Assembly (NCBI GenBank): GCA_000002445.1
Contig: CM000208.1
Location: 3,456,001 to 3,520,000 of the forward strand
Direction of reading: 5' to 3'
From: Trypanosoma brucei
Taxonomy: Eukaryota
DNA: 64,000 nt
In this document: positions 10,634 to 33,276 of the stretch, one piece after another
How positions within the stretch are numbered: the stretch's first letter is position 1
How the letters are laid out: each line of letters starts with the position of its first letter
The notes under the pieces: model-generated
The model's input: only the letters and a program-made list of their open reading frames with translations
Databases searched by the model: none
Told to the model about the DNA's origin: nothing
Program-made: the position numbers and the translations under genes

Positions 10634-13231
10634 TTACAACTTCTTACGCGTGAGACTCCTCGATTTCACTGGCGGAGTCGTTACGTTTTCATTGACTTCG
10701 CGTACACCTTGCGTGAAACTGCGGTTCCTGCGGTTGACACTAGCAACTTTGGGGTTGGAACCCGTACCTCTACCACTCCGTCCGCCTACCCCTGTTGCGG
10801 AATCAACGGTAAGCTTACAAGGAGGTGTTAGAGACGGCTTCATTTCACTTTTGATGGATCTCAATGATTCACATCCGTTTTGTTCCATCTCTTCTTCCCT
10901 TGATTGATCCGTCATCGACATCTCCTCCCTTTCGCTCGTATGGTCAAGGGGCGGCAACACTCGCCCGGGAACGGCATCTGGTCGACGTCTGTGGAGCCGT
11001 GGAAAGGACTGTACCGAGCTGGCGCTGCTGCGTTGCGGGTTTGCACAACAAGTGGGGGGTGTTGCCGGAGTTGTTGGTAGGAATGTTGAACCGGACAGTG
11101 AAACCGAAGCACTGAGGCGTGTACCACTAGCGGTTGGAACGGTATCAGACCGCACAATGTCCCTCTTCAGTGCCTGGGGCGTGGTTCCCTGAGATCGCTT
11201 GGTGGCAGCAAATGTATTACGAGTGAAGAGGTTGGGATCATTATCGCTGGCACCAGTTTCACTACGATGTACCTCCAGTGGACGGCCCGCAGTCTCGTCT
11301 GACCTTGCGAGAAGGGCACGGATTCCACGGGCTCCCGCCGCTACAACGACATCACTGGAAACCTGTTTATGAAAGGCCCTCACCTCAGCGCTCGTGCCGT
11401 TTCTTGGCTCGTGGCCATCAGCTTTACCATCGTCAGGACCCGTAACTACCCCGACACCATAAACTTCAGCAATGAAGTCATCCATGAAACTGCTGAACCC
11501 ATCAAAAGACGAAATGGATTGGAGAAGCCGCCACGCAGGATATGATAACACGTCTATTGACCGACAATGTGTTTGGTGTGTGTCACGTGAGCCGTCACTC
11601 CCACCCTCAGGGTATTCACCAGTACTGCTGCCCGCAAGATCAACATCGTAAAGCGTTAAAACAAATTCTTCCATGCTGAAGCTCGGTACTTGCCTCCTGA
11701 GCAACTGGAGAAGGAAGTTACTGACACAGCTGCTGTACCGCTCGTAGACGGAAAACGCCTCGTGAGGATACTCGCGGATCGAACTACTCGCGCCTCCACT
11801 GCCACCCCCCTGCAGAAACAGTTTGTGGTGCTCGAACAAAAAGTTACCCAGTTCGTCAACAACTTTGCGGTTTGACGCCGCCCGTTCCAATACACGCACG
11901 CTCATATGGAAACGATCAAGGGCCTGCTCCGCCGCAGTGGCAAGCAAGTCACCGTCCGCGGTGAATAAAGCCTCCAACCCGGGGCGGTGAGAGGGGGAAA
12001 TTCCCTCTTCCTGTTGCCGCTCAAGGGCTGATCTTGCGTTGTGCCGAGCCCGTTCCGCAGTTACAACATCCATAAGCGTAAGGGGCGCACCAAACGTGCA
12101 GGGTGCACTCGCTAAGCTAACTCCAGGGTCAGCGGTGCTGGGGAAGCTTGTGGTTGATAAGCTCGCGTGTATCGCGGGGATTGAGGTGTCCTTGTAGGCA
12201 CCCAAAGCCGCCAGTGTAAAGGCTTCACTCATGTGGTCCGTTGCGATAAAGTATTTGTTAGATGCGGTGGATGCACCAGCATCACCGTCGCCTTCGGCAC
12301 CGTCTCCCTCCTGGTATGCATCGTACAAACTTAGAAGCACCCGCTCTTGCAATTCAGAAAATGTGCGTGGAGGTTGAGCAAACATCCTGCGTGCCGTTTC
12401 CGGTTGACTTTGATTGTCACTGCCTTCGATGGGTAGGTGGTCCACGGATGATAACGACTGATACTCCTTCCGCTTCTCACCGACTTTTGATTCCTCGGCA
12501 AATATCTCAAGAAGGCGGTCAAATTCACGCCCTGTTTGACTTCCTTCTGATGCTCCTAACCCTTGCAGCGCCTCCCTCACAGCGAGAGGAGTTTCAACAG
12601 ATGCTAGGGGAGAACTTCTACCGCTGGAGTCACATCCGGTATTGCTTTGATCCTTAGTGCTGTTTATACTACAGCTTGTGACATCGTCTCGATGGTGTAG
12701 TGCGTACTTGGGACTCGTTGCGCCATGGGTACCGCCGACCTGCTGAGGTACAGACAACTGGGCCATTCCCAACAAAGGTGCCGAACCCACCGCACCTCTT
12801 CCTTCATTTTCTGTATGGGATTTCTCTCGGTTATTGTCCGCCTTCCCGGTGCCAGCAATCTCACTCCGCGGAAACAGCAGCTGTACAGTACGCTGACGTG
12901 CGACACGGTAAAGCTCCGGATCACTTGTAGACGACTCGGCATCACTTTTGGGAATTTGCGAGGAGGTCAACGACGCGTTACTGACGCTGTCCTTACAGGC
13001 GTTCGCGTTCCGAGGCCGAACTCCCCGCCAGTGCGAGGGATTTCTTACATTTGACCCACTGTCATCACTGCTACCGCTACTCGTGGCACTGTCACTACTG
13101 ATTGACCGCGCGCTTCCCACCGTCGGCTTCTTTGAAGGGTTGGTGCCGCTTCGCGCACTCGTCACCCCCCATTGGCCGCGAGCGGCACGACGGGCACGTT
13201 CAGGGTCAATACGCTTTGGTTTAATGGCCAT
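10634..13231 (-). CDS. Hypothetical Ser/Thr-rich low-complexity protein (865 aa)
   Basis: Long ORF with ATG at 13231, sitting in the same strand and polycistron as its neighbours. No recognisable domain; large disordered S/T/P-rich segments. Confidence 0.5.
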   Translation of the reverse strand: MAIKPKRIDPERARRAARGQWGVTSARSGTNPSKKPTVGSARSISSDSATSSGSSDDSGSNVRNPSHWRGVRPRNANACKDSVSNASLTSSQIPKSDAESSTSDPELYRVARQRTVQLLFPRSEIAGTGKADNNREKSHTENEGRGAVGSAPLLGMAQLSVPQQVGGTHGATSPKYALHHRDDVTSCSINSTKDQSNTGCDSSGRSSPLASVETPLAVREALQGLGASEGSQTGREFDRLLEIFAEESKVGEKRKEYQSLSSVDHLPIEGSDNQSQPETARRMFAQPPRTFSELQERVLLSLYDAYQEGDGAEGDGDAGASTASNKYFIATDHMSEAFTLAALGAYKDTSIPAIHASLSTTSFPSTADPGVSLASAPCTFGAPLTLMDVVTAERARHNARSALERQQEEGISPSHRPGLEALFTADGDLLATAAEQALDRFHMSVRVLERAASNRKVVDELGNFLFEHHKLFLQGGGSGGASSSIREYPHEAFSVYERYSSCVSNFLLQLLRRQVPSFSMEEFVLTLYDVDLAGSSTGEYPEGGSDGSRDTHQTHCRSIDVLSYPAWRLLQSISSFDGFSSFMDDFIAEVYGVGVVTGPDDGKADGHEPRNGTSAEVRAFHKQVSSDVVVAAGARGIRALLARSDETAGRPLEVHRSETGASDNDPNLFTRNTFAATKRSQGTTPQALKRDIVRSDTVPTASGTRLSASVSLSGSTFLPTTPATPPTCCANPQRSSASSVQSFPRLHRRRPDAVPGRVLPPLDHTSEREEMSMTDQSREEEMEQNGCESLRSIKSEMKPSLTPPCKLTVDSATGVGGRSGRGTGSNPKVASVNRRNRSFTQGVREVNENVTTPPVKSRSLTRKKL

Positions 13232-15156: not shown

Positions 15157-16419
15157 CTAATTAGCTGCTGCGGGAAGGGTGCTTGCAGGCCGTCTAACGG
15201 CACTCTCTGCGTATACCTGCGCAGCTGCATCGTGAAGCTTCTTGAACTCAAGGTAACGGTTCATTTGCATGCTCGTCTCCTGATTGGTCGTGCGCCACAA
15301 CGCCGTGCCGCTCTTGAGTGCGGCACTTTCATCCTCCTTCGTTTGTTTTCCGGACTCATCTGCCTTGTTTGTGGATGGCGGGGTCCCACCCTTCTGAGCG
15401 TTAGGCTCTCCTGCTGCTGCTTCTCCGGATCCCGTAGAACCACTGCCATTTGTACGGTCGCTTCTGGCATCCTGAGCATCAAACGCGTCAACATCCTCAA
15501 CATTCCCCTGAGCTCCTGCGTTGCTGTTCGCGTAACTGTCCTTCAAGACACCACTTGCTTGGCTTGCTCCCTCCTTCAACGCCGTGCGATCCCCTGCAGT
15601 GTTGAGTGGGAGCCATACGACACCAGATCCGTAAGGGTGCGAACTGAAATTGAAGCGCTGTTGCTTGCCCCTGACGCTGGGAAGCAACGAATCACGTAGT
15701 ACATCAGCTGGAGGCACTTGGCACTCATGTTTACCCTGCGCATTCACGGCAAAACAGTGACCGCATAAGTGTTCGTCCTCGGGGCATTCAGCGACCATCT
15801 TCTTCGTCTTCTTGTCCTGCTTCCGCACAAGTTCCCTCAACATCTCGATGTGTCTTACCGAAAGTGGCCGAGGCCCACCAGACGCCTTGTGTCCGTCTGT
15901 CACATTCTTTATTGTTTGCAACGCCTCCCGTAAGTCTTCATCAGCCGAGCACACTGGCTGCTGCTCCGCAGAGGCGGATTTGCCTTCCACCACAAGCTCT
16001 TGCCCATCAGTCCCCACAGATTGATCATGCAGCCGAACATCTTCATCTGGAAGTGTGAGGCCGGAACGCAACCGCTCTCGACGGAGCTCCTGCTCTGTGC
16101 GCAGCCGCTCCCTATTTTCGAGTATCAGCAGCTCCTGTAGGCGGTCACGGCGGCGGACCGGTACTGTTAGAGCGGCACGGGCCATGTTACCCCGTGTTGA
16201 CAGCAGCATTTCATCGGGCTCAAATTTGTACGAATTCTTCATGCTCGCCTTTAGGCTTTTCCCACGCAAGGTGTCATTTAGGGCTTTCACGTAAAGCTCA
16301 TCTTTGGTGTGGCAGTTAGAGTGTGGGAGCGTGATATTAAAGGGCTGCGTACCATTGAATGAGCGCTTCTTCTCACAATAGGAGCAGCGGCAGAAGTCTT
16401 TGCACTGCTCACGGAGCAT
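15157..16419 (-). CDS. Hypothetical Cys/His-cluster protein (420 aa from the first ATG); a member of the local paralogous trio
   Basis: The track start 16425 is GTG, and the first in-frame ATG is 16419..16417 (MLREQCKDFCRCSYCEKK). It carries an N-terminal C-x-DFC-x-C cluster, an R/E/L coiled-coil (DRLQELLILENRERLR) and a C-terminal HLCGHCF...HPYGSGVVWLPLN motif. Confidence 0.5.
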   Translation of the reverse strand: MLREQCKDFCRCSYCEKKRSFNGTQPFNITLPHSNCHTKDELYVKALNDTLRGKSLKASMKNSYKFEPDEMLLSTRGNMARAALTVPVRRRDRLQELLILENRERLRTEQELRRERLRSGLTLPDEDVRLHDQSVGTDGQELVVEGKSASAEQQPVCSADEDLREALQTIKNVTDGHKASGGPRPLSVRHIEMLRELVRKQDKKTKKMVAECPEDEHLCGHCFAVNAQGKHECQVPPADVLRDSLLPSVRGKQQRFNFSSHPYGSGVVWLPLNTAGDRTALKEGASQASGVLKDSYANSNAGAQGNVEDVDAFDAQDARSDRTNGSGSTGSGEAAAGEPNAQKGGTPPSTNKADESGKQTKEDESAALKSGTALWRTTNQETSMQMNRYLEFKKLHDAAAQVYAESAVRRPASTLPAAAN

Positions 16420-18025
16420 CCCCACTGTGTTCTCACTCTTTTATTTGATGAAATGCAAAACAAGGAATTGGAACCTTGACTCTTTTCTCTTGAACCTTCC
16501 GCAATATCTAAAGCAAAAAAGGATATTACCAGGCGCACTGCTGCGAGCACCGGTCGTTATGAGAGGTAAAAGGGGAATAGATAAGAATATGAATATGTAT
16601 ATATATATATATTTGTATGTGTTCATTATTTTTCAAGTGGCAGAAGTGAAGTTGTTAGAGGGCGCCAAATCAAATCCTCATGCCTCTTGAGGAGATGTAG
16701 ACAACACTTTAAACACGCACGCACGCACACACGCACACGCAACGGTACCAGTGTTACAATCATACACCCACAAAATACACAAAAAAAGGACGGGGATGGC
16801 GAAACACTTGAGGTCTACATGCATGCGTATGCACCAACACATAGAGATGTGTTTAGATGCGTCTGTGTGTGCGTGTGATTGATGAAGAGAGAAGGAAGTG
16901 AGGAGAGTGGTGATTTGTTACATGCAACTCTCCTTTGCTCTTTGACTCTAAGGGTGGATACAATACATCTTGTGACAGAATGAGATGGCAAGAATAAAAA
17001 CGGACTCAATCCTGTTGCGTTACCACGTGGCGTTACAACTCACACGATGTGGAACGACCATTATCATCCTTGTAGACATTGCGTTGGTGAATGAAAATAT
17101 AAAAAGGGGAAAAGTGCACGAACCCCATCACCAACCACCTCGTGTACATCCCCCACCTCACCTCTCGTTGTTTCCATTATTTACCTCTTTTGCTCGTATT
17201 GCTCGGCTCGTTTGCTCGTTCAGTTTGTTTTTGCTCCCCTCCCTGTGCGTGTACGTGTACGCATCTAACTCACACTCGTAATTACGCGCACAATTGCGTG
17301 CTGCCTTTCCCTCATATTCGTTTCTTTCCGTCTCTTCTTGCTCTTTCTTTCCCTCCTTCGGCACTCCACATGGCGTTTAAGCGGTTATACCGCCTGCAGC
17401 TAACCACAGGTATACTCCCATTGGTATAAGCATGCACACACACATATATATACGCAAGCAGTCTAATGCGAGATTTAAAAGGAAATATATTTTTTTTAAA
17501 AAGCAACTAATTTGCGCGAATTGGGAAAAAAACAAGTTAAGACCCGAGCATAAACAAAAGGAAACAGCAACTTCCTCTCCCACCCGCACACCAGCAAGCC
17601 AAAAGGAGGGCCAATGGAAAAGTTCCACAGAAGGGACTAATCGCACAGAGATCCTATATACATGTATATCGCCCCCATCACTGCATTTACACAGTAAAGA
17701 AGAGGGTAAACCAAAACGGAAAACAACTCACCAGCAACACCAAAAATACGAATACATAAAGAACCAAAAAAGAAAAACGGTGCCAAGTTAACCATCGAAA
17801 ATACAAAGCGACTCGACGTCTGAGACACGCAGAGGCATCAATGACCTACGAGAGCAGCGACCAGGCGGAGGGGGGGGAGGGGTGAAACAAAGCCCACGGG
17901 GCCCACAACCACCCCTCATCGACACAACCAGCTTTTTTCACTCCACGACTACTTCAACCCCAGTAGTATGAAATTCAACAGAAATATGGGGCTAGATTCC
18001 AAGAAGGGGGTTATGTCACCAGTTC

Positions 18026-19039
18026 CTAATTAGTTGTGGTTGGTTGATTCTTCAGGAGTGTTGCTTTCCATAGGTCACGGTTGTCCGTGTTGCCCAACGC
18101 AGCTGAGGTGCCAATGCCGTCGTCAACCACGGCATTCAGGCCACGGCACCAAACCACACCAGCGCCTTCAGGACGGGGACCATACGTATTCAAAGTTCCG
18201 ATAGTCTTCATCCCTTCAATCGGGGGTGTTGCAACGCCTTCGCGAGAAACTGGAGGAGTGCCTGCTCCACACTGCCGATGCAGAACAGCGCCTAGCGCCG
18301 CCGCGTTATCCCGATTGGCGGGGTCGCGAGCAACCGTACGAACTTTTTCAATGACGTGCTGCAGGCGGTGCGAATCTTCGCAATGTGGAGGGGGTGTGAC
18401 GGAACAGCGGTGGGCAGCATCGTACGCTTCACGGACCGTACCCGGCATCACAATGGTGCCCTGCGGTGGTGTAGCACTCTTCACACGCACCTGTTCTTCC
18501 GGTGCATCGAATGGTATCGGGCGTGGCCCCTTTCCAGTTCTCTTCAAAGTTTCGAAGTTCTCTGCATCTGCAGCTGCCTTTACGCGGGATTTGTGCTCAA
18601 GTACGAGAAGGCGCTCGAGACGGTCGAGGTCATCCATCGCATCCTTTTCTTGTTCCTCACGAGTTTTTGCCATGCCATTACTGCCGTTTAGCAGACACTG
18701 TTGTGCGGCTCTTACACCAGGGGGAATCGTGTATTCGCCACCGTGTTGTAAACCGTTGCGGCCCATTTTTGCATTGAGCTCCGTTTGATTCGGGTGGTGC
18801 TCAGGGTCATCCAATTCAAAGGAAGGCTCCTGCGGCTTCCGGTCATAATTACGCTGTGACAGAGAATCGTGGCATTGGCAACAGCAGTTGTGCAGCGCCT
18901 GCTGCTCCCTCAAGTGACTCACAGTTGTCATGAGGGCACTCTTTTTCGCATTTAGATTACGGCGGCTATTGCAGAAGTCACACTGGCAGTGTTGGTGAGA
19001 CTGGTACTGCACCGATACGTGTGGCAACTTGACAGACAT
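18026..19039 (-). CDS. Hypothetical Cys/His-cluster protein (337 aa), paralogous to the 15157..16419 product
   Basis: ATG at 19039. It has an N-terminal HCQCDFC and CCCQCH cluster, a DRLERLLVLEHKSRVK segment that aligns to DRLQELLILENRERLR of the neighbour, and a C-terminal GAGVVWCRGLN motif. Confidence 0.5.
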   Translation of the reverse strand: MSVKLPHVSVQYQSHQHCQCDFCNSRRNLNAKKSALMTTVSHLREQQALHNCCCQCHDSLSQRNYDRKPQEPSFELDDPEHHPNQTELNAKMGRNGLQHGGEYTIPPGVRAAQQCLLNGSNGMAKTREEQEKDAMDDLDRLERLLVLEHKSRVKAAADAENFETLKRTGKGPRPIPFDAPEEQVRVKSATPPQGTIVMPGTVREAYDAAHRCSVTPPPHCEDSHRLQHVIEKVRTVARDPANRDNAAALGAVLHRQCGAGTPPVSREGVATPPIEGMKTIGTLNTYGPRPEGAGVVWCRGLNAVVDDGIGTSAALGNTDNRDLWKATLLKNQPTTTN

Positions 19040-19768
19040 CGTGCACGTTTCTCTCTCCCTTGCGTCACTGCTTTTACAAACACTTCTAGTTTATACTACT
19101 TTCCTCTTTTTTTAAAAAAAATATTGTTACGGCCGCTGTCTTACAGAATAGTAATAACGTCATTATTAATAACAAAGTAAAGGAGGAAAAAGTGAAGGTA
19201 TAAACCACATTCAGTGAAAAAAGAAGGTTAGCAACCGCAAGGAATTGCATTCAAGTGTATGTGTGAGAGAGATAGAGAGAGACACCACTACATACGTTCC
19301 CACGCAGCGCTCGTGGGTTAGACCTCGCACAGTACAAAGTCGACTTTCATGACCCCACTGCACTCCCGAAGTGGCAAAAACTTGCCTCTCAAAGTACTCG
19401 CGCGCACGCTGTAAACAATAAGTTGATGTTTACCTACAAGCGCAGGGAAACACCACCACCAACAAAAGGAAGATAAGAATATCAAATATGGGGTTTAAAA
19501 TATCTTTAAACATCCTTCTGTACCTGCGCATGACACACAAACTGTGCTCTGCATTCCCGATGCTTGTTTATTTACAGACTACATATCCCCCGCAATATCG
19601 TCGCGCACCTGCCGTCCCATTCACGGCAGTAAGCTTCGCAAACGAAAAAAAAAGAAAAAACATCCCTCTGCTGCCTTTCCGCGCCCTTAACTTCTCTCCC
19701 TTCACGGCAATGATCCCTTCCCTCACACCTCATTCACAGAAGCACAGCGGCATTCAACAAGAAGGTTA

Positions 19769-22333
19769 TTAGTCCTCCCCCTTGTCACGGCTCTCCCTAC
19801 AAACTCTGCGCCGAGGTGAAGCAGCTGAAGAGGACTCCGAACTCACCCCTGCAGATGCTCCGCTCACACTTGTGGCTTGCGTCGGATCACGAAACTGTGC
19901 TCCACCCCCGCCTCCTCTTACGGCTTCAGTTGGTGCGTATGCATTTTGTAGTGCCTGCGCTTGCTGAAGCAGAGCCTTTACAGACACTACTAACCACACA
20001 GGGCATTTCTCCTCCAGCACCTCCAACTGCGACTTGAGGAAGGTCTTAAAGAACAACACTGCAATGACAATTATTGCTATGAGCAGAATGGGCGAGGTGA
20101 GGAGATAGTACAACTCATTCCACCCCAACAGCAGCATCACCGGCAATACCCATGGTGGTAAACTTTGTTTCCCACTCTCAATATTACGGAGCTGCATCTG
20201 CAGTGTGAAGTCAGCTTTTTGTTTGTACAGATGGAAGGCGCACTGCAGAGCATTGTGGCTTAGAAGAACGTTGTCTGCATTAACGGTATCAGCGGTCGTA
20301 TCGCCAGAATCCACCACTGACGTGGGAGCATCCAATGGATAACGTGGGACATCTGATATATTGGTGAAGTGAAGAAAAAAATTCTTCTCTGTTCGATTAT
20401 CACGTACTTGGAACCTGCAGCGATCACGAACTAGACGCTGTAACGCACGGGTAGTTCCTTCCCCCTCGACTTCTCCAGCATCTACTTCAACAGGGACAAG
20501 CTTTAGGCGGTAGTACAGCAGGCAGCCCAACAGCACAAGTCCTGCTTGGCGGGCTTGCTTCTCCGCACCGAGGAGACCATCAGTGGTTCGGAAAAAACGC
20601 ACAGTCCCATCCGTCTTGCTAGTGAGAGCTTGTTCGAACACCTGGTGAACCGTTTCCGCCGCATTTTCCGCCATCGCCACAAAGCGATTGCGTAGCTTGT
20701 GTTGGGCTCCCTCCATTGCCGCATGGGCCACACCCTCGCGTACTGCCTGGTCATCCATGATAGCTGTGGCAAACTTTCCATAAAGGGATGACAGTGCGGC
20801 CTGATGGGATTTAGAACACCCATTCAGCATATCAAACGCCCCCTGCAAAGATAAACAAATCCTTTTCCAAAACTCCTCCACGAACAGCCGGCACCTCTTA
20901 TTGTCGACGAGGCCCTCGGCAGTGTCCAGAACGCCTTGTGCGAGTCCACCCCCATCTATTCTATCCCCTTTGTTATCCTTGCCTTCCAAAAGCAAGACAG
21001 ACCGGGCCTCATTTTGAAGCCAACGTACGGCCTCGTCCACACTACTTCCGATTACCCCATCCAACGCTGCAAGAACTGTCACAGCGATACTTTTTGCGTA
21101 CTGCTTGAGCAAATGAAGTTCCATGTCGCCCAGTTCCTCCTCGAGCGCTTCTGCCGTTTCGTGCACAACACTGACCTTATAAAGCTTAGTTTGGTCGGAG
21201 AAGTTTTTCAGTAGCCTCTCTATAGTCTCTTCCAAAGCACGCGTAAACTGAGGAATCACGTCACCGCGTTGTATCTTTTTCGTATATTCCTCGCAAACTT
21301 CTTTGAATTCTTCGATAGCAGCATGCTTCGCATCCGCGCACCGATGCCTTGCGAGCATATCACGCTGCGTAGGAATGTCAAGGTCCTTACTCGAGCAGAT
21401 AGCGTTCCAGCAGTTTGAGAGATATGATGGCATTCCATCGGCTGGGACACCGCGAAACATGCTGCAGTTACTGAAGAGAAAGTTCGAGTTTTTAGGTGAT
21501 ACAAACCACTCGCGGAACTCAGAGACTGCACTGTCAAACTCGGGGCGTTGAAGTTTGTAATGCGGGAGGACCCGATAGCGCAAGTCGAACACCACATCGA
21601 TGGTCGCATCCGTAAATGACTCCGGCTTCTGAATGTTGCCCCATATTTTATCGAAAGACTTCCGAACTGTTTCAAAAGATGGGGCAGGGTCATTCTCCGT
21701 GAAATCACGTAAAACAACCAAAAGCGTGGGTTTTTCCTCCTTCACATAACTACCGTGGGAAAATAGTTGTAAATTCACTTCGAATACCGTGCGAAGAAGG
21801 TTCATATTAGCGGCATTGAAACGACCAACATCGACAGCCCACATGTTAATTATTAGAATATCGGCAACACTGAGCGCAAAGAGGGAAAGTTGGCGCTCGA
21901 AGTTCTGATCTTCGCCTCGTTCAATACCATCGGTGCCTTCGAAGTCCAAAACAAACAGGGGTTGAGGTTTCTCTCTTTTCAATAAGTCTGCTCCTTCACC
22001 TTCCTCTCTTTCCTTCCGGTGAGTTTGTGCATCCAGAATGGCACGAGTCATAAAGGCCCCTTTTGTTGTCTGTCCGCGGTGATGTGCCTCATCCATTGTC
22101 ATAAACTCAGTTTGGAAAAGCGAATTAAGTAGCGTTGACTTACCGCTGCTCTGCCCGCCAAACACACCAACCACATGATAATTGACGCCCGTGCGGTACA
22201 AAATGTCACTGGAACCCTTTCCGGCGAGAGCTGAAATGAGAAAGTCGTTAATGTCAGCTTCTGGAAGTAGCTCACCGTCATCGTTGATGAGATGAATCCC
22301 CTTGACAGCCGTCTCCCCGCTGAAAGCAGCCAT
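19769..22333 (-). CDS. RHD3: RHD3/Sey1 dynamin-like GTPase (atlastin-type ER fusion GTPase), 854 aa
   Basis: ATG at 22333. The GVFGGQSSGKSTLLNSLF P-loop, RGQTTKG, DFEGTDGIERGEDQNFERQLSLFALSVADILIINMW and PTLLVVLRDFTEND blocks align well with what I recall of plant RHD3 and yeast Sey1. There is a C-terminal hydrophobic hairpin (ELYYLLTSPILLIAIIVIAVLFF). Confidence 0.88.
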   Translation of the reverse strand: MAAFSGETAVKGIHLINDDGELLPEADINDFLISALAGKGSSDILYRTGVNYHVVGVFGGQSSGKSTLLNSLFQTEFMTMDEAHHRGQTTKGAFMTRAILDAQTHRKEREEGEGADLLKREKPQPLFVLDFEGTDGIERGEDQNFERQLSLFALSVADILIINMWAVDVGRFNAANMNLLRTVFEVNLQLFSHGSYVKEEKPTLLVVLRDFTENDPAPSFETVRKSFDKIWGNIQKPESFTDATIDVVFDLRYRVLPHYKLQRPEFDSAVSEFREWFVSPKNSNFLFSNCSMFRGVPADGMPSYLSNCWNAICSSKDLDIPTQRDMLARHRCADAKHAAIEEFKEVCEEYTKKIQRGDVIPQFTRALEETIERLLKNFSDQTKLYKVSVVHETAEALEEELGDMELHLLKQYAKSIAVTVLAALDGVIGSSVDEAVRWLQNEARSVLLLEGKDNKGDRIDGGGLAQGVLDTAEGLVDNKRCRLFVEEFWKRICLSLQGAFDMLNGCSKSHQAALSSLYGKFATAIMDDQAVREGVAHAAMEGAQHKLRNRFVAMAENAAETVHQVFEQALTSKTDGTVRFFRTTDGLLGAEKQARQAGLVLLGCLLYYRLKLVPVEVDAGEVEGEGTTRALQRLVRDRCRFQVRDNRTEKNFFLHFTNISDVPRYPLDAPTSVVDSGDTTADTVNADNVLLSHNALQCAFHLYKQKADFTLQMQLRNIESGKQSLPPWVLPVMLLLGWNELYYLLTSPILLIAIIVIAVLFFKTFLKSQLEVLEEKCPVWLVVSVKALLQQAQALQNAYAPTEAVRGGGGGAQFRDPTQATSVSGASAGVSSESSSAASPRRRVCRESRDKGED

Positions 22334-23243
22334 AATGTCACGTAAATAAACGACTTGAGTTCAACTAATAATCCTCCTCCTCCTCCTCCTCTTTCCTGTA
22401 CCCCTTCGTACACGTATCCCAACCTCTACTGCCTTCTCAACCTCACAGTACTCCAAGCAAACCGCTTTCGCCTTTTTTTTCCTTCCGCCAATATCACACT
22501 CGCGATGTCACAACGGGGTGTGAGGCCGGGGAATATATTTAAATAGTAATGATGATAATATAAGCCTCAAGTATCCGAGTACGTGTATTGGTGAGCTCAC
22601 GCGTGTAGGCAGGTTTTTTTTTCTTTTTCCTTTCCCTGTTCCTCCCCCCTAAATGCTCTTTTCCCAGCGGTTTCGCTCCACGGAACCAAATTCTCCCACG
22701 GGGTGATAATTTCTTTTTTTTTAAAAAAAAAGAAACAAATATGCAATAAGCGGCACTGACGTGACTCTCTTACAAGTGCATCATCAAAATGCGAAAAGGT
22801 GGAACCCCCGAAAGGTAAAGAGAAGAGAGAGAGAGAGGAAAAATAAGATTCACCTAAGAACAACTGATGAAAAGGGACACATTGGCAGGACTCGTAGACC
22901 GTAGTAATACACACGAGCAAGCAGCATGTATGACCAAAGAAAGGAAAAGAAAAGAATGGATCGCAAACACTGTCCACCACATGTGCTCATGTGCGTACAA
23001 AAACACGTACATGGCACCGAAACGGCGATCACGTGTCACAGTAAATGACTCTGCGTTGAGGCAAAAAAAAAAAAGAGGAAACAAAAGTACATTAAGAAAA
23101 AAAACAACTTACAAATACAAATAGTGAACCAGAACGGTCAATACCCCCGTTCATGTTCAATTGTTAATGTAGTAGGGAAGTTGTGTTTGAATCTTCAAGG
23201 GCACCGAAAACAGTATGGAACCCCACCATCTAAATTTCTGTAA

Positions 23244-24644
23244 TTACAAATGGTGAGCGCTTGTGCTGCGTGTCGTTTCCCATTTCTTCGCCTTCTCTGC
23301 CAGTGGTGCACTTGGGCTGCGTGTCGTAGGTGGCACCGGACGCAAGTAGCCATCTTCCTCTAAGCGATTAATGACCTGAGAACGCCTATCTGAGTGAGCA
23401 TGATCTGTTATAAAGATTTTCCTGCCATGTTTTACGCTACTACTACGAGCCACAGGTGAGTTTGCGACGCTTTTCTTAAACTCATTTGTGGGACGGGGAG
23501 TTTTCGCCGCCGGGGGTTCCTCTTTTTCGCTTTTCGCAACGACGGCCGAGGGCGCCGTCCCAGGGTCCTTCGCAGGTACATTATTATTACAGCGGCACGG
23601 CGCAAAACACTTACAAGGCCGGCAACGGCAGACAGCATGGCAACAGCATTGCAACACTACTTGAGGGTGCTGGTTGGGTTCTGACCCTTTTTTAATAAAG
23701 GAAGTCGACCGGCTTACCTGAGCTGGCCGTGCATCCGTAGCCTTGGACTTCTTCGGCGGTTGTGTGTTCTCAGGAACGTTGTCCTCATTATTAGTTACAC
23801 GGGGTGCTGCCGCGCGCCTTTCCTTGTGCGCGGCTACACATTTCCCTTCCGCACGCGGAGCCACATGCGCTACTGTATTTCTCGCCAGAGAATGTTGCCT
23901 CATTTGACCAGTCCCACAGTGTGGTACAGGAGTATAGTAATAAGCCGGCGTTTCCTTTCGGGGGCGCGCCACAACCCGGGAAGTGCGTCTGTCTTCCACG
24001 GGGCCCACTAGTTGCCGATAACCGCGACCTCCCAGCTCCCGCCGTCGTTCTTCAACTTCGCGCCGAAGCTCTTGTCTCCGTCGCTGTTGCTCAGCCATAG
24101 CAGCTTGTTGGTGTATTGTCCCGCGAGCGTGGCGCATAAGGTGTGTCATATTGGATTTGTAATGCCCCCGTGATTCGCCGTGAGTACCCACCACCTTCCC
24201 ACCGAGTGCTTGAAGAAGGTTTTCCCGATCCGCCCGCACTGCGAGATATCGCTGCCTCTTCTCATGATGTTCATACTCCCTCAGCTGCTCCCTTTCAGGC
24301 ACGCAAAACGCACAGAGCCGCGACCCGTGAGCCACTGGGAGAACACCAACCCCTCCTCCAGAGTATGGCCGCCCCTGGTGGTGTTGGTATGGCACATTAT
24401 CACGCGAGCATCCAAAACAACAGTGGCAGCAACTGTGATCGGAAGCTGTCGCAGGGCAAACGTCGTGAGCCACTTCACAGCAACAAGGAACACGGTAGAG
24501 TGGGCCATTGTGACAAGGTGGAATCACATTACCGGCCACTCGAGTGGCAGCTCCAGCAATATAACCGGCGGGGCAGCCCGTCTGGCACGGCCTATCCTGG
24601 CTAGTTTGTGCGGCGTGGTCACGACAAATAGTGTCCGCGCTCAT
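23244..24644 (-). CDS. Hypothetical Cys-rich protein (466 aa from the first ATG); third member of the local Cys/His-cluster family, with permuted motif order
   Basis: The track start 24746 is GTG, and the first in-frame ATG is 24644..24642 (MSADTICRDH). The N-terminal half carries CCHCCFGC...RPYSGGGVGVLPVAHG, then an R/E coiled-coil (QQRRRQELRREVEERRREL), then a C-terminal CCCHAVCRCRPCKCFAPCRC cluster. Confidence 0.45.
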   Translation of the reverse strand: MSADTICRDHAAQTSQDRPCQTGCPAGYIAGAATRVAGNVIPPCHNGPLYRVPCCCEVAHDVCPATASDHSCCHCCFGCSRDNVPYQHHQGRPYSGGGVGVLPVAHGSRLCAFCVPEREQLREYEHHEKRQRYLAVRADRENLLQALGGKVVGTHGESRGHYKSNMTHLMRHARGTIHQQAAMAEQQRRRQELRREVEERRRELGGRGYRQLVGPVEDRRTSRVVARPRKETPAYYYTPVPHCGTGQMRQHSLARNTVAHVAPRAEGKCVAAHKERRAAAPRVTNNEDNVPENTQPPKKSKATDARPAQVSRSTSFIKKGSEPNQHPQVVLQCCCHAVCRCRPCKCFAPCRCNNNVPAKDPGTAPSAVVAKSEKEEPPAAKTPRPTNEFKKSVANSPVARSSSVKHGRKIFITDHAHSDRRSQVINRLEEDGYLRPVPPTTRSPSAPLAEKAKKWETTRSTSAHHL

Positions 24645-25395: not shown

Positions 25396-26541
25396 TTACT
25401 TCCCTTCTGAAGTTCCACCGTTATTCTTATTTTTCGCAGCACCTTCTTTTCTACTTTCCTCCGTGGCGGCCTCCTTCGCCTTGTGCTGTTCGTTTCCTAA
25501 CTTTTCCTTTAGTGACCGCTCCCGCCGCGCTCTCACTTCCTGTATTTCGCGAGCTATGCGCCGTCGGTTAGCAATAACGTCGTAGAGAGTGCAGACACAT
25601 CGCCCAATGGCGGCGATGAACATTGCAATCGCCTGATCATTTGCATGCCGCACCATGTCAGTTGATGTCTTCAAGTGATAAATGTGCGGCTGCAGGCTGA
25701 TAACTTCCTGCAAGACACTCAAAACATCCTCTGAGATGGGCATGGTACCCTCTGCAACGTCATTAAGATACTCCTCAATTGACTGCAGAACACGACCGAG
25801 GTGGTCAAGTGAAAGCTCACGCTCCTGGACCTGGGCGGAAAGTGTTGTGATGGTGGAATCGGTAAGGTCCCGCAAGAGATGTTCAATACCGATTTCCTCC
25901 GCCTCTTCCGCGCCGAGATGTGTGGGGATGTTGCGAAACTCCAACGATCGCGCCCCGTCTCGGCCATGCACCGTCGTATAAGCCAGCACGGGCACACCTT
26001 TGTTGTTAGGATCTGTATTCACAATGCAGTACACCGGATTCAGCGAGAAGCGATCTGCAATAAGGAGGTGCAAGAGCATGTCATTCGGCTGCACCGCGCA
26101 CGAGGGACCTGCAGAATACCACCCAACAATCCGCACCTTGGGGTGTACGCGACGAAACATTAGGAACATTTCCTCTGCATAGTTTGTATCGAGAAACCAG
26201 ACATCAGGATTCTGAGGGTCCTCATCAAACGGAACAGCGAAACTGTTGTTGATGTCAAGCACTTGTATTCCACCAGGGTGGCTGAGGTGACGGCCGAGAA
26301 GAAGCCCAGCGACACGCCGCTTTTGTGACACTTTTGCGTTAACACGGGCGTAGTGGTCGACAAGTGAGAGCAAAACAAGTGGGTGAACCTCTACTCGTGC
26401 CCCCGCAGGAGTAAATACCGGAACATCTTTTCCACCATCACGTTCCGCGTCGCCGTCGTCCCCATTGACGGATGTGTCCTGTTGGTCCACTTCAGGATTG
26501 AGTACCGCAGGTTGCGGTTCCTTGGGGTCATCATTGGCCAT
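25396..26541 (-). CDS. RPN8: 26S proteasome regulatory subunit Rpn8 (PSMD7, MPN/Mov34 domain), 381 aa
   Basis: ATG at 26541. VHPLVLLSLVDHYARV, NSFAVPFDEDP, RIVGWYSAGP and AEEAEEIGIEHLLRDL are near-identical to remembered Rpn8/PSMD7 MPN-domain blocks. There is a lysine-rich C-terminal tail. Confidence 0.88.
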   Translation of the reverse strand: MANDDPKEPQPAVLNPEVDQQDTSVNGDDGDAERDGGKDVPVFTPAGARVEVHPLVLLSLVDHYARVNAKVSQKRRVAGLLLGRHLSHPGGIQVLDINNSFAVPFDEDPQNPDVWFLDTNYAEEMFLMFRRVHPKVRIVGWYSAGPSCAVQPNDMLLHLLIADRFSLNPVYCIVNTDPNNKGVPVLAYTTVHGRDGARSLEFRNIPTHLGAEEAEEIGIEHLLRDLTDSTITTLSAQVQERELSLDHLGRVLQSIEEYLNDVAEGTMPISEDVLSVLQEVISLQPHIYHLKTSTDMVRHANDQAIAMFIAAIGRCVCTLYDVIANRRRIAREIQEVRARRERSLKEKLGNEQHKAKEAATEESRKEGAAKNKNNGGTSEGK

Positions 26542-26920: not shown

Positions 26921-28629
26921 AAATTTTGAGCAACACAGCACCAAGTACAGCCAGTAATTAGCCAACAAAAAAAAACACAAACAAAATTGGGCAGTCAGTC
27001 GAAAGAAAAGAAAATAAATAAATAGAGTGTTCCCGGTGAGACACACTGCGATTTTCTCTTTTTTTAACCCATCAGATTTTTTTTGGGGGGGGAGTAGGGA
27101 CTCATTGTTTGTGATGGATGAGGGTTTTTTTTTTTATTTGTCACCCATACGCTACTTCATTTTTCTCTCAAAACCAAAAAAAAAAAAGAAATTTTCTCCC
27201 GATTTTTTTTCTTACTCCCTCCCTCTCGCACGCTTTTGGTATCGAATTTACTTTTAAGTGTACAAAAAAACCCAGACGCTTCATCTGCGACTCGAGCAAA
27301 CGGGGAAAGGGAGAAAAATTGAGTAAAAAGAAAAATAAGAAAGAAAATAACAATAATAACAATGACGATGATGATGATGATAACGATAATGGTAGGCAAC
27401 TATACTATAAAGAGACGAAACGGCAGCAGCAGGAAAAAAAAAAAGGCATGAACCATCCCTCAATTCCTTTCACTCACTCATTCATTTATTTATTCATTCT
27501 CACCCTCATCCTCCACACCCTTCTCTCCCCCTCTGTAAAAACATGCCTCCTCCTCCCTTATGTTCTCCTTCTTTCTTTCTTTCCTTCTTATTTTTTAAAA
27601 AAAATTTTCATCATGAAAAAAAAAAAACAAAGAAAGGAGTAGGAACAGTGGATAGATTTGAAGAAGAGAAAAGACAAAAAGAAAGAGAAAGAGAACAACT
27701 ACACGGTATGTGAAAAGAGTTGAAGATAAAATATTTGCATGGCATCTTGAAGTTGAAATGATCCCAAAGTTTGATGGCATAAGGGATCGCGAGCTGTACA
27801 CAAACACACATATTTTGCATGCATTTGCCTTTGTGTATTTTCCCCCATGCCTGCGCAAGTAATGGCTGAGGCAACTGTAACGATTATTATAATGGGATAA
27901 TGGCAACCCGATACGGTAACACACAGGCACACACACACACAAAAAAAAAAATAATAATAATAGTACTAATAATGTGCTCGCCGCATTATTCTCTTTTTCC
28001 TTTTTTTTTTCCTCTCCCGTTTAGGAACGGTGTGTGTTTCTCGTTCCATCATCTAATAATCGCATCTTTCCCAAAGTTTTTTTTTTCATTTTATCCTTCT
28101 TTTTCTTCACTCTCTCCTCCTTCCTCTGAAGAAACCTCCTCATTCACACAAAACCATCAACGCAAACAAAAGCACAAAATAGACAATAATCACACACCAC
28201 AAGAGAACAACAATAAATGTAATTTGTAGCATTGACGAACGCGCCTTTTTCTTTTTCTTTCTTTCTGTTTTTTTTTCCCCCTCCCCCTCTCATTATTTTA
28301 TTTGGTGTTATGCTGTTGCTGTTGCTGTTGCTGTTGTTGTTGTTTTCCTTCTCTTGACAGCTCCTTCGCCTTCCCTCCCAATGCCATCGTTCCGTGCCTT
28401 CTCATTACCCCTCATCATCATCATCATTATCATTACTATCACATAGAAACCCATATATAATTTCCAGCCAAAAAGAAAAAGAAAAAAGAAAGATTCTCCC
28501 CTTCCCCCCTGATCCTAAAAAAGAAAAAAGAAATTCCTTTTGATGTTTTCTTTTTCTTTCTTCTGCCCCACCACTTTTCATTTCCTTTTTTTTTTAAATT
28601 CGCGTTCTCCTCCTCCGGTCGCATGAATG

Positions 28630-28641
28630 CATATATATATG

Positions 28642-28672
<31 letters not shown>
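28630..28672. repeat. (TA)n microsatellite
   Basis: Direct read: atatatatatgtatatataatatatatatatatatatatata. Confidence 0.8.

Positions 28673-31047: not shown

Positions 31048-31080
<33 letters not shown>
31048..31080. repeat. (GAT)11 microsatellite
   Basis: Direct read: gatgatgatgatgatgatgatgatgatgatgat, flanked by (AGT/AAT)-rich repeats. Confidence 0.85.
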
Positions 31081-32489
31081 AATGATATATATATAAATAA
31101 AAAAAGAAGACAATAGTGGTAGTAGTAGTAATAATAACAATAACGAAATGATACGAGAGAAGTTACAAAATGCACCATTTTTTTTTTTAATCCCTTATTT
31201 CATTTTCATTTACTTGTGCATGAATACACATATATCCATATATTCATCCATGAATAAATAAATACCTAAACACATTCTTATGTTTAAATATAAATAAATA
31301 TATAAACACATGATTATACAAATATATATGTATATATAAATATAAGACGCGCACCTGCGTAGTTCACTTCATCTTTTTTTTTCTTAATTTCCCTCCTTTT
31401 CTTTCTCTTCTTCCTGTGTTTTTTGGTGCCGCTGATTTCATTTTAGTTTTAATTTTTGTTTCGTTAAATTGATCACTTCATTTGCAGCTGTTGAACCTAC
31501 GAACAAAATTTAAAAAAGCGCTAGCAATCGGAGCCTTCTTCGTCGTTGGGTGCTGATGTTATTTTGAATGAATGAATGAAAGAAAGAAAGAAGGGTAACT
31601 TATTTCATTTTATATTATATTATATTAATTTTGTATGAATTTATTCTACTTTGCATTACTTGCTTTTCTCTCTCTCTTTTTTCTTTCTCTTCTCTCTTTG
31701 TTGATCCATGCATGCATTTCTATTCTTTTCGCTTCATTTCCCCTCATCTTCATAACCATCATATTTACACCAAAACATATTTTTTTTCTTTTCTTTTTTA
31801 TTTTTCCTCGCTCTCATTAAATTCCATCACTAAACTTTCTCTCACCCCCATTCCCCTAATTGCGTTATTTCCGCAATCCCCATGAAGTCGCGGTCGCACA
31901 CTATCCTAAAAATATAAATATCTGTTATACATATACATATATATATATTTATATTTATTTATTTTTTTAAATACTCTGTTTTATTTCGTTTCCTTTTCTT
32001 TTTGTTCTTGTTGTTGTTATTGCTGTTGTCGCTTGTTTTGTTTCTTTTTAATTATTATTATTATTATTTTTTTTTCTTTTTACGTCCTCGTTTTCATTCA
32101 TTTTATTAACTTTCTTTGTTTTTATTTTTATTTTTTTCTTTTTAAAATACCGTTTCATTTTAGGAACTTCTCCTCTCTTATTTTATACCATATCATCGTT
32201 ATATCACCACCACCATTGCCATCGTATTATTATTATTATTATCATCATCATCATCATCAATATTGTTACCCCCTCCTGTTTGTTCGAGTACAAAAAGCAG
32301 AGAGATACAAACCAAACAACAACAACAAGGAAAAATAATAATAATAATAATAAAAAAACAAAAGATGGAAAAAAGGGGGAAAAACAAAAAAACAGAAGAA
32401 GAAAAAAACGAACACGTATTTAAAAACTTACAAGTAAAAGAGAAAAAGAGTAAAGAGAAAACGAAAAATAAGAAGCGGGAGAAATGAGA

Positions 32490-32558
32490 TTTATTTGATT
32501 CCTCATGTGGACTCCCTTCCCTGGTAGATGCAGGAATCCACATGAGGAATCAAATAAA
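32490..32558. repeat. Perfect 22-bp inverted repeat (stem-loop with a 25-nt loop)
   Basis: Left arm tttatttgattcctcatgtgga at 32490..32511. Right arm tccacatgaggaatcaaataaa at 32537..32558. The two arms are exact reverse complements, and the loop is ctcccttccctggtagatgcaggaa. Confidence 0.8.

Positions 32559-33232: not shown

Positions 33233-33236
<4 letters not shown>

Positions 33237-33270
<34 letters not shown>
33237..33270. repeat. (TA)n microsatellite
   Basis: Direct read: tatatatatatatatatatatatatatata followed by tttatataaatatatataaataaatat. Confidence 0.8.

Positions 33271-33276
<6 letters not shown>

What the first reader, a model, noticed from the sequence alone, without database searches (positions are those of the whole stretch)
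15157..24644. Local trio of apparently paralogous Cys/His-cluster proteins, one with circularly permuted module order
The products of 15157-16419, 18026-19039 and 23244-24644 share three short modules. The first is a Cys cluster with CxC-DFC / CCC[QH] motifs (CKDFCRCSYC; HCQCDFC...CCCQCH; CCCHAVCRCRPCKC). The second is an R/E/L coiled-coil; DRLQELLILENRERLR aligns with DRLERLLVLEHKSRVK. The third is an H-x-C...PYG-x-G-VVW-LP-LN motif (HPYGSGVVWLPLNTAG; GAGVVWCRGLNAV; RPYSGGGVGVLPVAHG). In the first two proteins the order is Cys-cluster, then coiled-coil, then the PYG motif. In the third the PYG motif and coiled-coil come first and the Cys cluster is C-terminal. Three such genes within 10 kb suggest local duplication of a kinetoplastid-specific metal-binding family, with domain shuffling.
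Basis: inference. Interest (0 to 1): 0.55.

Follow-up and report, generated by a model that had tools for sequence, protein, structure and literature searches.

The report
Two flagellar paralogs, one unrelated neighbour
Two of the three genes are an ancient tandem duplicate pair that encode already-solved structural proteins inside the trypanosome flagellar microtubules (PON3 and PON4), while the third is an unrelated, already-named basal-body protein (TbBBP52), so there is no trio and no circular permutation.

Summary
The window is Trypanosoma brucei chromosome 10, and all three ORFs and all quoted motifs exist as described. Genes 1 and 2 (15157-16419 and 18026-19039, minus strand) are true but very old paralogs. 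Profile-profile comparison gives 98.6% probability, E=1e-15. Five motifs are collinear and are the most conserved columns in both families. The two genes are adjacent throughout the Trypanosomatidae. Both are already known: they are 100% identical to chains PON3 and PON4 of the T. brucei doublet-microtubule cryo-EM structure (PDB 9e2g/9e5c). Their Leishmania orthologues are DMIP22, a subunit of the B-tubule ponticulus, and DMIP24. Gene 3 (23244-24644) is TbBBP52 (Tb927.10.14520), a protein at the distal end of the basal body. A published tagging primer matches its 3' end exactly. Its family profile scores no better against genes 1 and 2 than shuffled or reversed controls. Its supposed "PYG" motif is not conserved even in T. 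congolense or T. vivax. The trio and circular-permutation reading is therefore refuted, and the pair is real but ordinary. Two leads remain. The conserved N-terminal C-x-C-x2-C cluster weakly resembles part of the CDCA7 zinc-binding domain. The shared G-x-G-V-V-W motif lies outside the parts of the Leishmania orthologues that were built into the cryo-EM maps.

The parts
15157..16419 (-). P1 = PON3 (by gene order and motif match, Tb927.10.14490). 420 aa, 46.2 kDa. Microtubule inner protein. Orthologue of Leishmania DMIP22, a ponticulus subunit.
   Evidence: 100% identical over 1-420 to PDB 9e2g/9e5c chain 'PON3'; DMIP22 hit at E=5e-53. Leishmania members carry the CHAYCRCSYC and CGHC motifs described for LtaP32.0380, the stated homologue of Tb927.10.14490. 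MW.
16375..16407 (-). P1 N-terminal Cys cluster QCKDFCRCSYC (residues 5-15). C10, C12 and C15 are invariant in both families.
   Evidence: Not among the residues built for Leishmania DMIP22, which start at residue 28. Borderline match to the CDCA7 zinc-binding domain.
16066..16164 (-). P1 long helix carrying VPVRRRDRLQELLILENRER (residues 86-118). D-R-L is invariant across both families.
   Evidence: AF2 helix 90-118 with pLDDT about 80-89. Lies within the built DMIP22 segment 28-130.
15787..15954 (-). P1 helical hairpin starting at the conserved Cys157 (residues 156-211). Homologous to P2 residues 209-256.
   Evidence: hhalign alignment. AF2 pLDDT about 90. Corresponds to the built DMIP22 segment 175-226.
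15721..15786 (-). P1-family-specific Cys/His cluster CPEDEHLCGHCFAVNAQGKHEC (residues 212-233), containing the 'CGHC' discussed in the Erv paper.
   Evidence: Degenerate in T. cruzi and in two Logan sequences. No counterpart in the P2 family.
15604..15639 (-). P1 HPYGSGVVWLPL motif (residues 261-272), shared with P2.
   Evidence: P262 is invariant and G264, G266, V267, V268 are nearly invariant across 30 sequences. AF2 pLDDT <50. Outside the built DMIP22 residues.
15196..15306 (-). P1 C-terminal helix ALWRTTNQ...VYAES (residues 372-408).
   Evidence: AF2 helix 370-408. Corresponds to the built DMIP22 segment 423-451.
18026..19039 (-). P2 = PON4 (by gene order, Tb927.10.14500). 337 aa, 37.0 kDa. 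Microtubule inner protein. Orthologue of Leishmania DMIP24.
   Evidence: 100% identical over 1-337 to PDB 9e2g/9e5c chain 'PON4'; DMIP24 hit at E=6e-34. TrypTag class 'Distal Strong' flagellum subdomain for Tb927.10.14500.
18959..19003 (-). P2 N-terminal cluster QSHQHCQCDFCNSRR (residues 13-27), homologous to the P1 cluster.
   Evidence: The equivalent Leishmania DMIP24 residues 128-152 are built in the cryo-EM model.
18869..18886 (-). P2-specific CCCQCH (residues 52-57).
   Evidence: Present in most P2-family members but absent in T. rangeli, T. conorhini and P0031. No counterpart in the P1 family.
18536..18631 (-). P2 long helix DLDRLERLLVLEHKSRVK... (residues 137-168).
   Evidence: AF2 helix 127-168 with pLDDT about 90.
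18272..18415 (-). P2 RCSVTPPPHCEDSHRLQH... helical hairpin (residues 209-256).
   Evidence: Aligned to the P1 hairpin by hhalign. AF2 helices 220-256.
18149..18175 (-). P2 RPEGAGVVW motif (residues 289-297).
   Evidence: Invariant P290, G292, G294, V295, V296, W297 in the P2 family. Aligned with the P1 motif. Predicted disordered.
23244..24644 (-). P3 = TbBBP52 (Tb927.10.14520). 466 aa, 51.6 kDa. Basal-body distal-end protein. NOT a member of the P1/P2 family.
   Evidence: The published TbBBP52 tagging primer matches 23247-23332(-) with 0 mismatches. MW of 51.6 kDa equals the Table S1 value. Profile comparisons are at null level.

Best explanation
The region holds one genuine paralog pair and one unrelated gene.

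P1 (15157-16419) and P2 (18026-19039) arose by tandem duplication of a single gene before the sampled trypanosomatids diverged. They have stayed adjacent ever since. Both are elongated proteins, mostly alpha-helical or disordered, that sit inside the lumen of the axonemal doublet microtubules. They are named PON3 and PON4 in T. brucei, and DMIP22 and DMIP24 in Leishmania and Crithidia.

From the literature: DMIP22 (the PON3 orthologue) joins DMIP4 and DMIP5 in a heterotrimer. This heterotrimer forms each ponticulus, the "little bridge" across the B-tubule, every 16 nm. DMIP24 (the PON4 orthologue) binds with 48-nm periodicity.

Inferred: the shared collinear motifs are retained contact or structural elements. 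They are the N-terminal C-x-C-x2-C cluster, F-x2-D, the DRLxxLLxLE helix, the PxC-helical hairpin and [HR]PxGxGVVW. The family-specific parts let the two copies occupy different luminal sites and periodicities, which is subfunctionalisation after duplication.

P3 (23244-24644) is TbBBP52, a coiled-coil protein at the distal ends of the basal bodies. It has its own conserved motifs: RxPCCCE, CxxC[VI]PE, and a C-terminal GRK[IV][FY]ITD...RSPSAPLPEK..KW.TT block. Its Cys-rich and Arg/Glu-rich stretches resemble P1 and P2 only in composition.
For: Paralogy of P1 and P2:
- hhalign gives probability 98.6%, E=1.1e-15. This score of 121 compares with a null maximum of 26-30, obtained by scoring the same P1- and P2-family query profiles against shuffled P3-family profiles.
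- HMM cross-hits fall in three collinear pieces.
- The merged alignment places the invariant columns of both families on the same motifs.
- AF2 models show the same order of elements.

Age and tandem state:
- The genes are adjacent in T. brucei, T. cruzi and L. donovani.
- Locus tags or accessions are consecutive in T. theileri, T. rangeli and T. cruzi marinkellei, and in Phytomonas and Angomonas.

Identity:
- P1 is 100% identical to PDB 'PON3' and P2 to 'PON4' in 9e2g/9e5c.
- 9e2g is the 48-nm repeat of the T. brucei flagellar doublet microtubule.
- Leishmania DMIP22 and DMIP24 are the next-best hits.

Function (literature):
- The ponticulus is a DMIP4/DMIP5/DMIP22 heterotrimer (PMC7617938).
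- Periodicities and built residues are given in the supplement.
- P1 is in the DRC1-APEX2 axonemal proximity proteome.
- P2 has a TrypTag distal-flagellum localisation.

P3:
- The tagging primer matches exactly.
- The molecular weight matches.
- Basal-body localisation is reported in two studies.
- It has its own syntenic orthologues.
Against: - Pairwise identity of P1 and P2 is only about 17% over the aligned region, so the homology rests on profiles.
- hhalign's single reported alignment stops before the GVVW motif. That motif is linked only by the merged MAFFT alignment and by weak HMM domain hits, with independent E of 0.001-0.03.
- I could not read the T. brucei structure paper or open any coordinates. 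The placement of PON4 in the ponticulus is therefore inferred from its name only.
- The subfunctionalisation step is inference.
- The gene IDs for P1 and P2 rest on gene order between two anchored genes plus a motif description, not on a direct database look-up.
- A P3-family HMM gives weak hits on the P2-family 'TPPPHC..HRLQH' region, best E 2.7e-5 at Z=1. The hhalign shuffles do not support these hits, but they are not fully explained.
Confidence: 0.9

Rival explanations
1. All three genes are paralogs of one Cys/His-cluster family, and gene 3 carries the same three modules in circularly permuted order.
For: The quoted strings exist. P3 is Cys-rich (5.6% Cys) and has an Arg/Glu coiled coil. 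A P3-family HMM weakly touches the P2-family 'TPPPHC' region.
Against: BLASTP E is 0.4-0.5. hhalign probability is <1% with 3- and 5-sequence P3 profiles. Observed scores lie inside the shuffled and reversed null. The 'PYG' string is not conserved in any P3 orthologue, and the C-terminal Cys cluster is missing in Leishmania. P2's CCCxCH is itself dispensable in several Trypanosoma species. P3 has a distinct, conserved orthologue in the same syntenic slot.
Confidence: 0.02
2. The P1-P2 resemblance is convergent or compositional (Cys bias plus generic Arg/Glu/Leu helices). The two genes are unrelated neighbours.
For: Pairwise BLASTP is only marginal. Both proteins are largely low-complexity or disordered.
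Against: Five motifs occur in the same order and coincide with the invariant columns of both families. hhalign E=1e-15 over 191 columns, against a null maximum score of about 30. Adjacency is conserved across the family. Both proteins reside in the same macromolecular structure.
Confidence: 0.03
3. P1 is primarily a thiol-disulfide oxidoreductase, possibly a Mia40 substitute acting with Erv in the mitochondrial intermembrane space. This was proposed for its Leishmania tarentolae orthologue UF1/LtaP32.0380. The flagellar association would then be secondary.
For: UF1 was moderately enriched in the LtErv-deltaKISS redox interactome. It has an N-terminal CHAYCRCSYC motif and an internal CGHC motif. 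RNAi of Tb927.10.14490 is reported to cause strong loss of fitness (PMC8557897).
Against: The protein is modelled in the doublet-microtubule lumen in two independent cryo-EM studies, and it is in an axonemal proximity proteome. The C-x-H-C motif is lost in T. cruzi and in two other members. There is no thioredoxin or any other Pfam domain, and AF2 shows no Trx-like fold around it. Cys-rich proteins can be trapped non-specifically in a disulfide pull-down (inference).
Confidence: 0.05

Closest known systems
PON3 / PON4 of the T. brucei doublet microtubule (PDB 9e2g, 9e5c; Xia et al. 2025, Science adr3314)
   Same: Identical sequences. P1 equals PON3 (420/420 aa) and P2 equals PON4 (337/337 aa).
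   Different: Nothing at sequence level. I could not read the paper, so I do not know whether it states that the two are paralogs or which residues are modelled.
DMIP22 and DMIP24 of Leishmania tarentolae / Crithidia fasciculata doublet microtubules (PDB 9e78, 9y6s; Doran et al. 2025, PMC7617938)
   Same: These are orthologues (E=5e-53 and 6e-34). DMIP22 is one of the three ponticulus subunits, with 16-nm periodicity. DMIP24 is a 48-nm MIP. The built DMIP22 segments coincide with the confident AF2 helices of P1.
   Different: The main text describes DMIP4/DMIP5 as adjacent paralogs but does not mention DMIP24 at all. None of the passages I retrieved relates DMIP22 to DMIP24. The deposited DMIP24 sequence starts about 110-120 residues upstream of the T. 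brucei and L. donovani start.
Paralogous MIP sets that create complex repeat patterns (RIB72A-D, CFAP106A/B, PACRGA/B, CFAP67A/B, DMIP4/5) as described by Doran et al.
   Same: The evolutionary logic is the same. Duplicated MIPs are retained together in one doublet and occupy different sites or periodicities.
   Different: PON3 and PON4 are far more diverged (about 17% identity) and differ in length and C-terminal content. Whether they contact each other is unknown to me.
TbBBP52 (Tb927.10.14520), a trypanosome-specific basal-body protein (Dang et al. 2017, PMC5210500)
   Same: P3 is this protein.
   Different: It has no detectable relationship to P1 or P2 and no PDB relative.
CDCA7 zf-4CXXC_R1 zinc-binding domain (PDB 8tle, 8yv8)
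   Same: The N-terminal profile of PON3/PON4 aligns with the last about 40 residues of the domain. C-x3-C-x-C-S-[FY]-C-[RK]-x-[RK] is followed about 25 residues later by Y-L-[KR]-[AS]-L. E is 0.002-0.05.
   Different: Only a fragment matches. The upstream CXXC pairs of the domain are absent. Single sequences give no Pfam hit. The statistics are borderline and the segment is Cys-biased. This is a lead, not membership.

Membership tests
PON3/PON4 (DMIP22/DMIP24) trypanosomatid microtubule inner proteins | Sequence identity or orthology to the chains modelled in the doublet-microtubule cryo-EM structures | tested here: met
   P1 is 100% identical to PON3 and P2 is 100% identical to PON4. DMIP22 and DMIP24 match at E=5e-53 and 6e-34.
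PON3/PON4 (DMIP22/DMIP24) trypanosomatid microtubule inner proteins | Physical location in the B-tubule lumen or ponticulus | not testable with these tools
   Taken from the literature (PMC7617938) and from the PDB entry title. Flagellar proteomics and TrypTag data are consistent with it.
One paralogous family comprising P1 and P2 | Significant profile-profile similarity with the same motif order | tested here: met
   hhalign 98.6%, E=1.1e-15. Collinear HMM domains. Shared invariant columns.
One paralogous family comprising P1 and P2 | Tandem arrangement conserved in other trypanosomatids, showing that the duplication predates their divergence | tested here: met
   T. cruzi and L. donovani loci. 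Consecutive locus tags or accessions in five further species.
Trio family including P3 (circular permutant) | P3 modules significantly similar to P1/P2 modules in any order | tested here: not met
   hhalign probability <1%. Observed scores lie within the shuffled and reversed null.
Trio family including P3 (circular permutant) | The putative shared motifs are conserved in P3 orthologues | tested here: not met
   The 'RPYSGGGVGVLP' region is unconserved in all four orthologues. The C-terminal Cys cluster is absent in L. donovani.
PDI-like or thioredoxin-fold oxidoreductase (suggested for the Leishmania orthologue of P1) | Thioredoxin fold around a conserved CxxC active site | tested here: not met
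   No Pfam thioredoxin hit. The AF2 region 212-233 has low-to-medium confidence and no Trx fold. C-x-H-C is lost in T. cruzi and in two other members.
Zinc-binding Cys cluster (zf-4CXXC_R1-like) | Full complement of zinc ligands and significant match to the domain | tested here: inconclusive
   Only the C-terminal fragment matches, at E=0.002-0.05. No Pfam hit. The paper says four DMIPs bind zinc but the text I could read does not say which.
CCCH zinc-finger proteins ZC3H39/ZC3H40 (Tb927.10.14930/14950) | Gene identity | tested here: not met
   This was a false lead from a misremembered IFT140 gene ID. IFT140 is Tb927.10.14470, so the window lies about 45 gene numbers away. There is no U-box or CCCH Pfam hit.

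The most novel reading that the evidence does not exclude
Two segments are the most strongly conserved parts shared by both paralogs: the N-terminal C-x-C-x2-C cluster and the [HR]P-x-G-x-G-V-V-W motif. Both lie outside the residues built into the Leishmania maps for DMIP22, and GVVW also lies outside those built for DMIP24. They could therefore serve a function that the static lattice model does not explain.

One possibility is a zinc- or disulfide-based latch, hinted at by the weak match to the CDCA7 zinc-binding domain and by capture in the Erv disulfide interactome. Another is an assembly or import signal that controls the late, maturation-dependent appearance of ponticuli in old flagella.
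Probability: 0.12. Interest if true: 0.5.

Novelty: already known. Interest (0 to 1): 0.2.

Why it matters
It matters little beyond annotation. The three proteins are already characterised: PON3 and PON4 in 2025 cryo-EM structures, and TbBBP52 in a 2017 basal-body survey.

The one modest addition is that PON3/DMIP22 and PON4/DMIP24 are an ancient tandem paralog pair with five shared motifs. This extends the published theme that trypanosomatid doublet microtubules gained complexity through duplicated MIPs, and I did not find it stated in the text I could read.

The analysis also flags conserved Cys and GVVW segments whose role the structures may not yet explain.

Finally, it cautions against reading Cys-rich and Arg/Glu-rich strings as homology, and against the PDI-like interpretation of the Leishmania orthologue.

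Tried and rejected
- Pfam scans of the three proteins, and of all 30 members of the two families, found nothing above threshold.
- Foldseek of the P1 AF2 model against the PDB gave no match with E<2. It did not even recover PON3 itself, presumably because the extended bound conformation differs from the low-pTM model.
- ZC3H39/ZC3H40 was a false lead. I misremembered IFT140 as Tb927.10.14980, which made the adjacent related pair Tb927.10.14930/14950 look like P2 and P1. This was corrected once IFT140 was shown to be Tb927.10.14470.
- A weak hit of the P3-family HMM on the P2 'TPPPHC..HRLQH' region suggested a possible collinear relationship. Column-shuffle and reversal controls with hhalign showed no signal above null.
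- Literature searches by UniProt accession and by Sey1/RHD3 name found nothing.
- The T. brucei doublet paper (Science adr3314 / PMC12165780) is not held.
- The first hhalign shuffle run timed out and was repeated with fewer shuffles.
- I could not determine which four DMIPs bind zinc.

Full report
**Source and gene map.** The window is Trypanosoma brucei TREU927 chromosome 10. P1 is identical to XP_827929.1, which lies on a 4.05-Mb contig. All genes in the region are on the minus strand. Reading from high to low coordinates, which is the direction of transcription, the order is as follows:

- an MPN/JAB proteasome-lid-like gene, 25396-26541;
- P3, 23244-24644;
- a SEY1/RHD3 GTPase, 19769-22333;
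- P2, 18026-19039;
- P1, 15157-16419;
- an 865-aa ORF with no Pfam match;
- IFT140, 3299-8389.

**Observation check.** Pairwise BLASTP shows two collinear but weak HSPs between P1 and P2, with E 0.006 for DRLQELLILENRERLR/DRLERLLVLEHKSRVK and E 0.013 for the N-terminal Cys motif. It shows nothing for P3 against either protein, with best E of 0.51 and 0.42.

**Families.** Each gene has its own orthologue set.

- P1 has 21 hits across Trypanosoma and the Leishmaniinae.
- P2 has 15 hits.
- P3 gave only T. brucei, T. congolense and T. vivax in the word-indexed search.

Synteny recovers the missing orthologues. In T. cruzi and L. donovani the order [P3-like]-SEY1-[P2-like]-[P1-like]-x-IFT140 is preserved. 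The translated neighbours carry the diagnostic motifs of the P2 and P3 families.

**P1 and P2 are paralogs.**

- Profile-profile comparison of the two families gives probability 98.6%, E=1.1e-15, over 191 columns.
- A P1-family HMM hits P2-family members in three collinear pieces and vice versa.
- In a merged 30-sequence alignment the columns invariant across both families are Q5, C10, C12, C15, F66, D92-R93-L94 and P262 (P1 numbering). Near-invariant columns include C157, G264, G266, V267 and V268.
- AF2 models are of low overall confidence, with pLDDT 61 for P1 and 55 for P2. They nevertheless show the same order of elements: Cys cluster, helix, long DRL helix (pLDDT 80-93), helical hairpin, then a disordered tail carrying GVVW.
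- The pair is adjacent or consecutively numbered in T. theileri, T. rangeli, T. cruzi marinkellei, Phytomonas and Angomonas. The duplication therefore predates the divergence of the sampled Trypanosomatidae.
- A full hmmsearch of 1.84 billion representatives with the merged profile found only 25 proteins. All resemble one family or the other by inspection, and every one that carries a source name is a trypanosomatid.

**P3 is unrelated.**

- hhalign probabilities are 0.3-0.9% with both a 3-sequence and a 5-sequence P3 profile.
- As an empirical null I shuffled P3-profile columns within 25-column windows. The observed scores of 21.2 and 18.8 were reached by 9/40 and 14/40 shuffles. The reversed profile scored higher, at 26.1 and 22.0. 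The P1-P2 score is 121.4.
The C-terminal Cys cluster is missing in Leishmania.
- The conserved features of the P3 family are different: RxPCCCE, RxCxxC[VI]PE, two Arg/Glu helices, and a C-terminal GRK[IV][FY]ITD...RSPSAPLPEK..KW.TT block.

**What the genes are.**

*P1 and P2.* P1 is 100% identical over its full length to chain "PON3", and P2 to chain "PON4", of PDB 9e2g/9e5c. Entry 9e2g is the cryo-EM structure of the 48-nm repeat of the T. brucei flagellar doublet microtubule. The next-best PDB hits are Leishmania DMIP22 and DMIP24 in 9e78/9y6s.

Doran et al. 2025 (PMC7617938) report that each B-tubule ponticulus (Pa, Pb, Pc, spaced 16 nm apart) is a DMIP4/DMIP5/DMIP22 heterotrimer. Their supplement lists two sets of built residues:

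- DMIP22: 16-nm periodicity; residues 28-130, 175-226 and 423-451.
- DMIP24: 48-nm periodicity; residues 128-152 and 177-215.

Mapped through the HMMER alignments, these correspond to P1 residues of about 26-121, 158-210 and 372-400. Those are the confident AF2 helices. For P2 they correspond to about 18-42, which is the Cys cluster and what follows it, and about 74-110.

Independent support comes from two sources. Tb927.10.14490 is in the DRC1-APEX2 axonemal proximity proteome. Tb927.10.14500 is in TrypTag's "Distal Strong" flagellum subdomain list.

*Gene IDs.* IFT140 is Tb927.10.14470. P3 is anchored to Tb927.10.14520 by primer match. P1 fits the description of the Tb927.10.14490 homologue LtaP32.0380, with an N-terminal CHAYCRCSYC and an internal CGHC. 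P2 is therefore Tb927.10.14500 by gene order.

*P3.* P3 is TbBBP52. The published C-terminal tagging primer matches window 23247-23332(-) with no mismatch. The computed mass of 51.6 kDa equals the Table S1 value. It localises to the distal ends of the mature and pro-basal bodies, and it was a TbPLK BioID hit scored "BB".

**Mechanism.**

- Shown: sequence identity to modelled MIPs, and paralogy.
- From the literature: ponticulus composition, periodicities and localisation.
- Inferred: after tandem duplication the two copies kept a common scaffold of short contact motifs. They diverged elsewhere so that they occupy different luminal sites and periodicities. This parallels the paralogous MIP sets that Doran et al. 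describe.

The alternative idea that the P1 orthologue is a PDI-like Mia40 substitute is weakened in three ways. The protein sits in the microtubule lumen. There is no thioredoxin fold. The C-x-H-C motif is lost in T. cruzi.

**Residual leads.**

- The N-terminal profile of the family aligns with the last about 40 residues of the CDCA7 zf-4CXXC_R1 zinc-binding domain, at E=0.002-0.05. This is the only non-family PDB hit below 0.01, but it is borderline and Cys-biased.
- The GVVW motif is invariant in both paralogs. It lies in predicted disorder and outside the residues built for DMIP22 and DMIP24.

**Verdict.** The pair is real but already known. The trio and the circular permutation are not real. 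Interest is low.

Noticed in passing
window 16270-16407 (P1 residues 5-50) and 18890-19003 (P2 residues 13-50): The N-terminal profile of PON3/PON4 gives a borderline match to the C-terminal part of the CDCA7 zf-4CXXC_R1 zinc-binding domain (PDB 8yv8_K E=0.0024; 8tle_A E=0.0023 with the full profile). The matched pattern is CRGICNCSFCRQR...YLKSL against QCKDFCRCSYCEKKR...LYVKAL. It is the only non-family PDB hit below 0.01, and there is no single-sequence Pfam hit.
   Followed up: partly
window 15604-15639 and 18149-18175: The [HR]P-x-G-x-G-V-V-W motif is invariant in both paralog families. It lies in AF2-disordered regions and outside the residues built for Leishmania DMIP22 and DMIP24. Its function is unexplained.
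   Followed up: partly
window 15787-15954 (P1 hairpin): The merged profile (positions 177-224) weakly hits the ponticulus partner DMIP5 (9e78_0z, E=0.038) and the T. brucei 'Enkurin domain-containing protein' 9e2g_3V (E=0.88). This could be a generic helical similarity or a distant link between ponticulus subunits.
   Followed up: no
window ~28000-37000: A gap of about 9 kb has 29-32% G+C, strong negative GC skew and long A/T and purine/pyrimidine tracts. It has no ORF above 180 aa and no high-scoring tandem repeat. It lies between the MPN/JAB gene and a DEAD-box helicase gene, inside an otherwise uniform minus-strand gene array.
   Followed up: partly
window 3299-8389, 15157-19039, 23244-24644, 43187-45490: Several cilium-related genes lie within about 45 kb: IFT140, PON3, PON4, TbBBP52 and a kinesin with MORN repeats. 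[quoted passage not shown] 7 legend), so this is probably coincidence.
   Followed up: no
window 10634-13231: An 865-aa ORF between IFT140 and PON3 has no Pfam match. ORFs of similar size (855 and 893 aa) sit in the same slot in T. cruzi and L. donovani.
   Followed up: no
L001:7819-8919 versus PDB 9y6s_3S: The deposited L. tarentolae DMIP24 sequence (484 aa) begins about 110-120 residues upstream of the start used in T. brucei PON4 and in the L. donovani ORF (MQSNYPKQNCGCDFC...). This suggests a difference in start-codon annotation.
   Followed up: no
literature, Leishmania chromosome 31/32 numbering: LmxM31.0380 is called the orthologue of Tb927.10.14520 (BBP52) in bioRxiv 2020.04.29.068445. 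LtaP32.0380 is called the homologue of Tb927.10.14490 (PON3) in PMC8557897. If numbering is syntenic, one assignment may be wrong, so the KHARON BioID hit could be the PON3 orthologue rather than BBP52.
   Followed up: no
window 23889-23939 versus 18272-18415: A P3-family HMM gives repeated weak hits (best E 2.7e-5 at Z=1) on the P2-family 'VTPPPHCE.SHRLQH' region, which resembles P3's 'YTPVPHCGTGQMRQH'. hhalign shuffles show no significance, so it is probably chance.
   Followed up: yes
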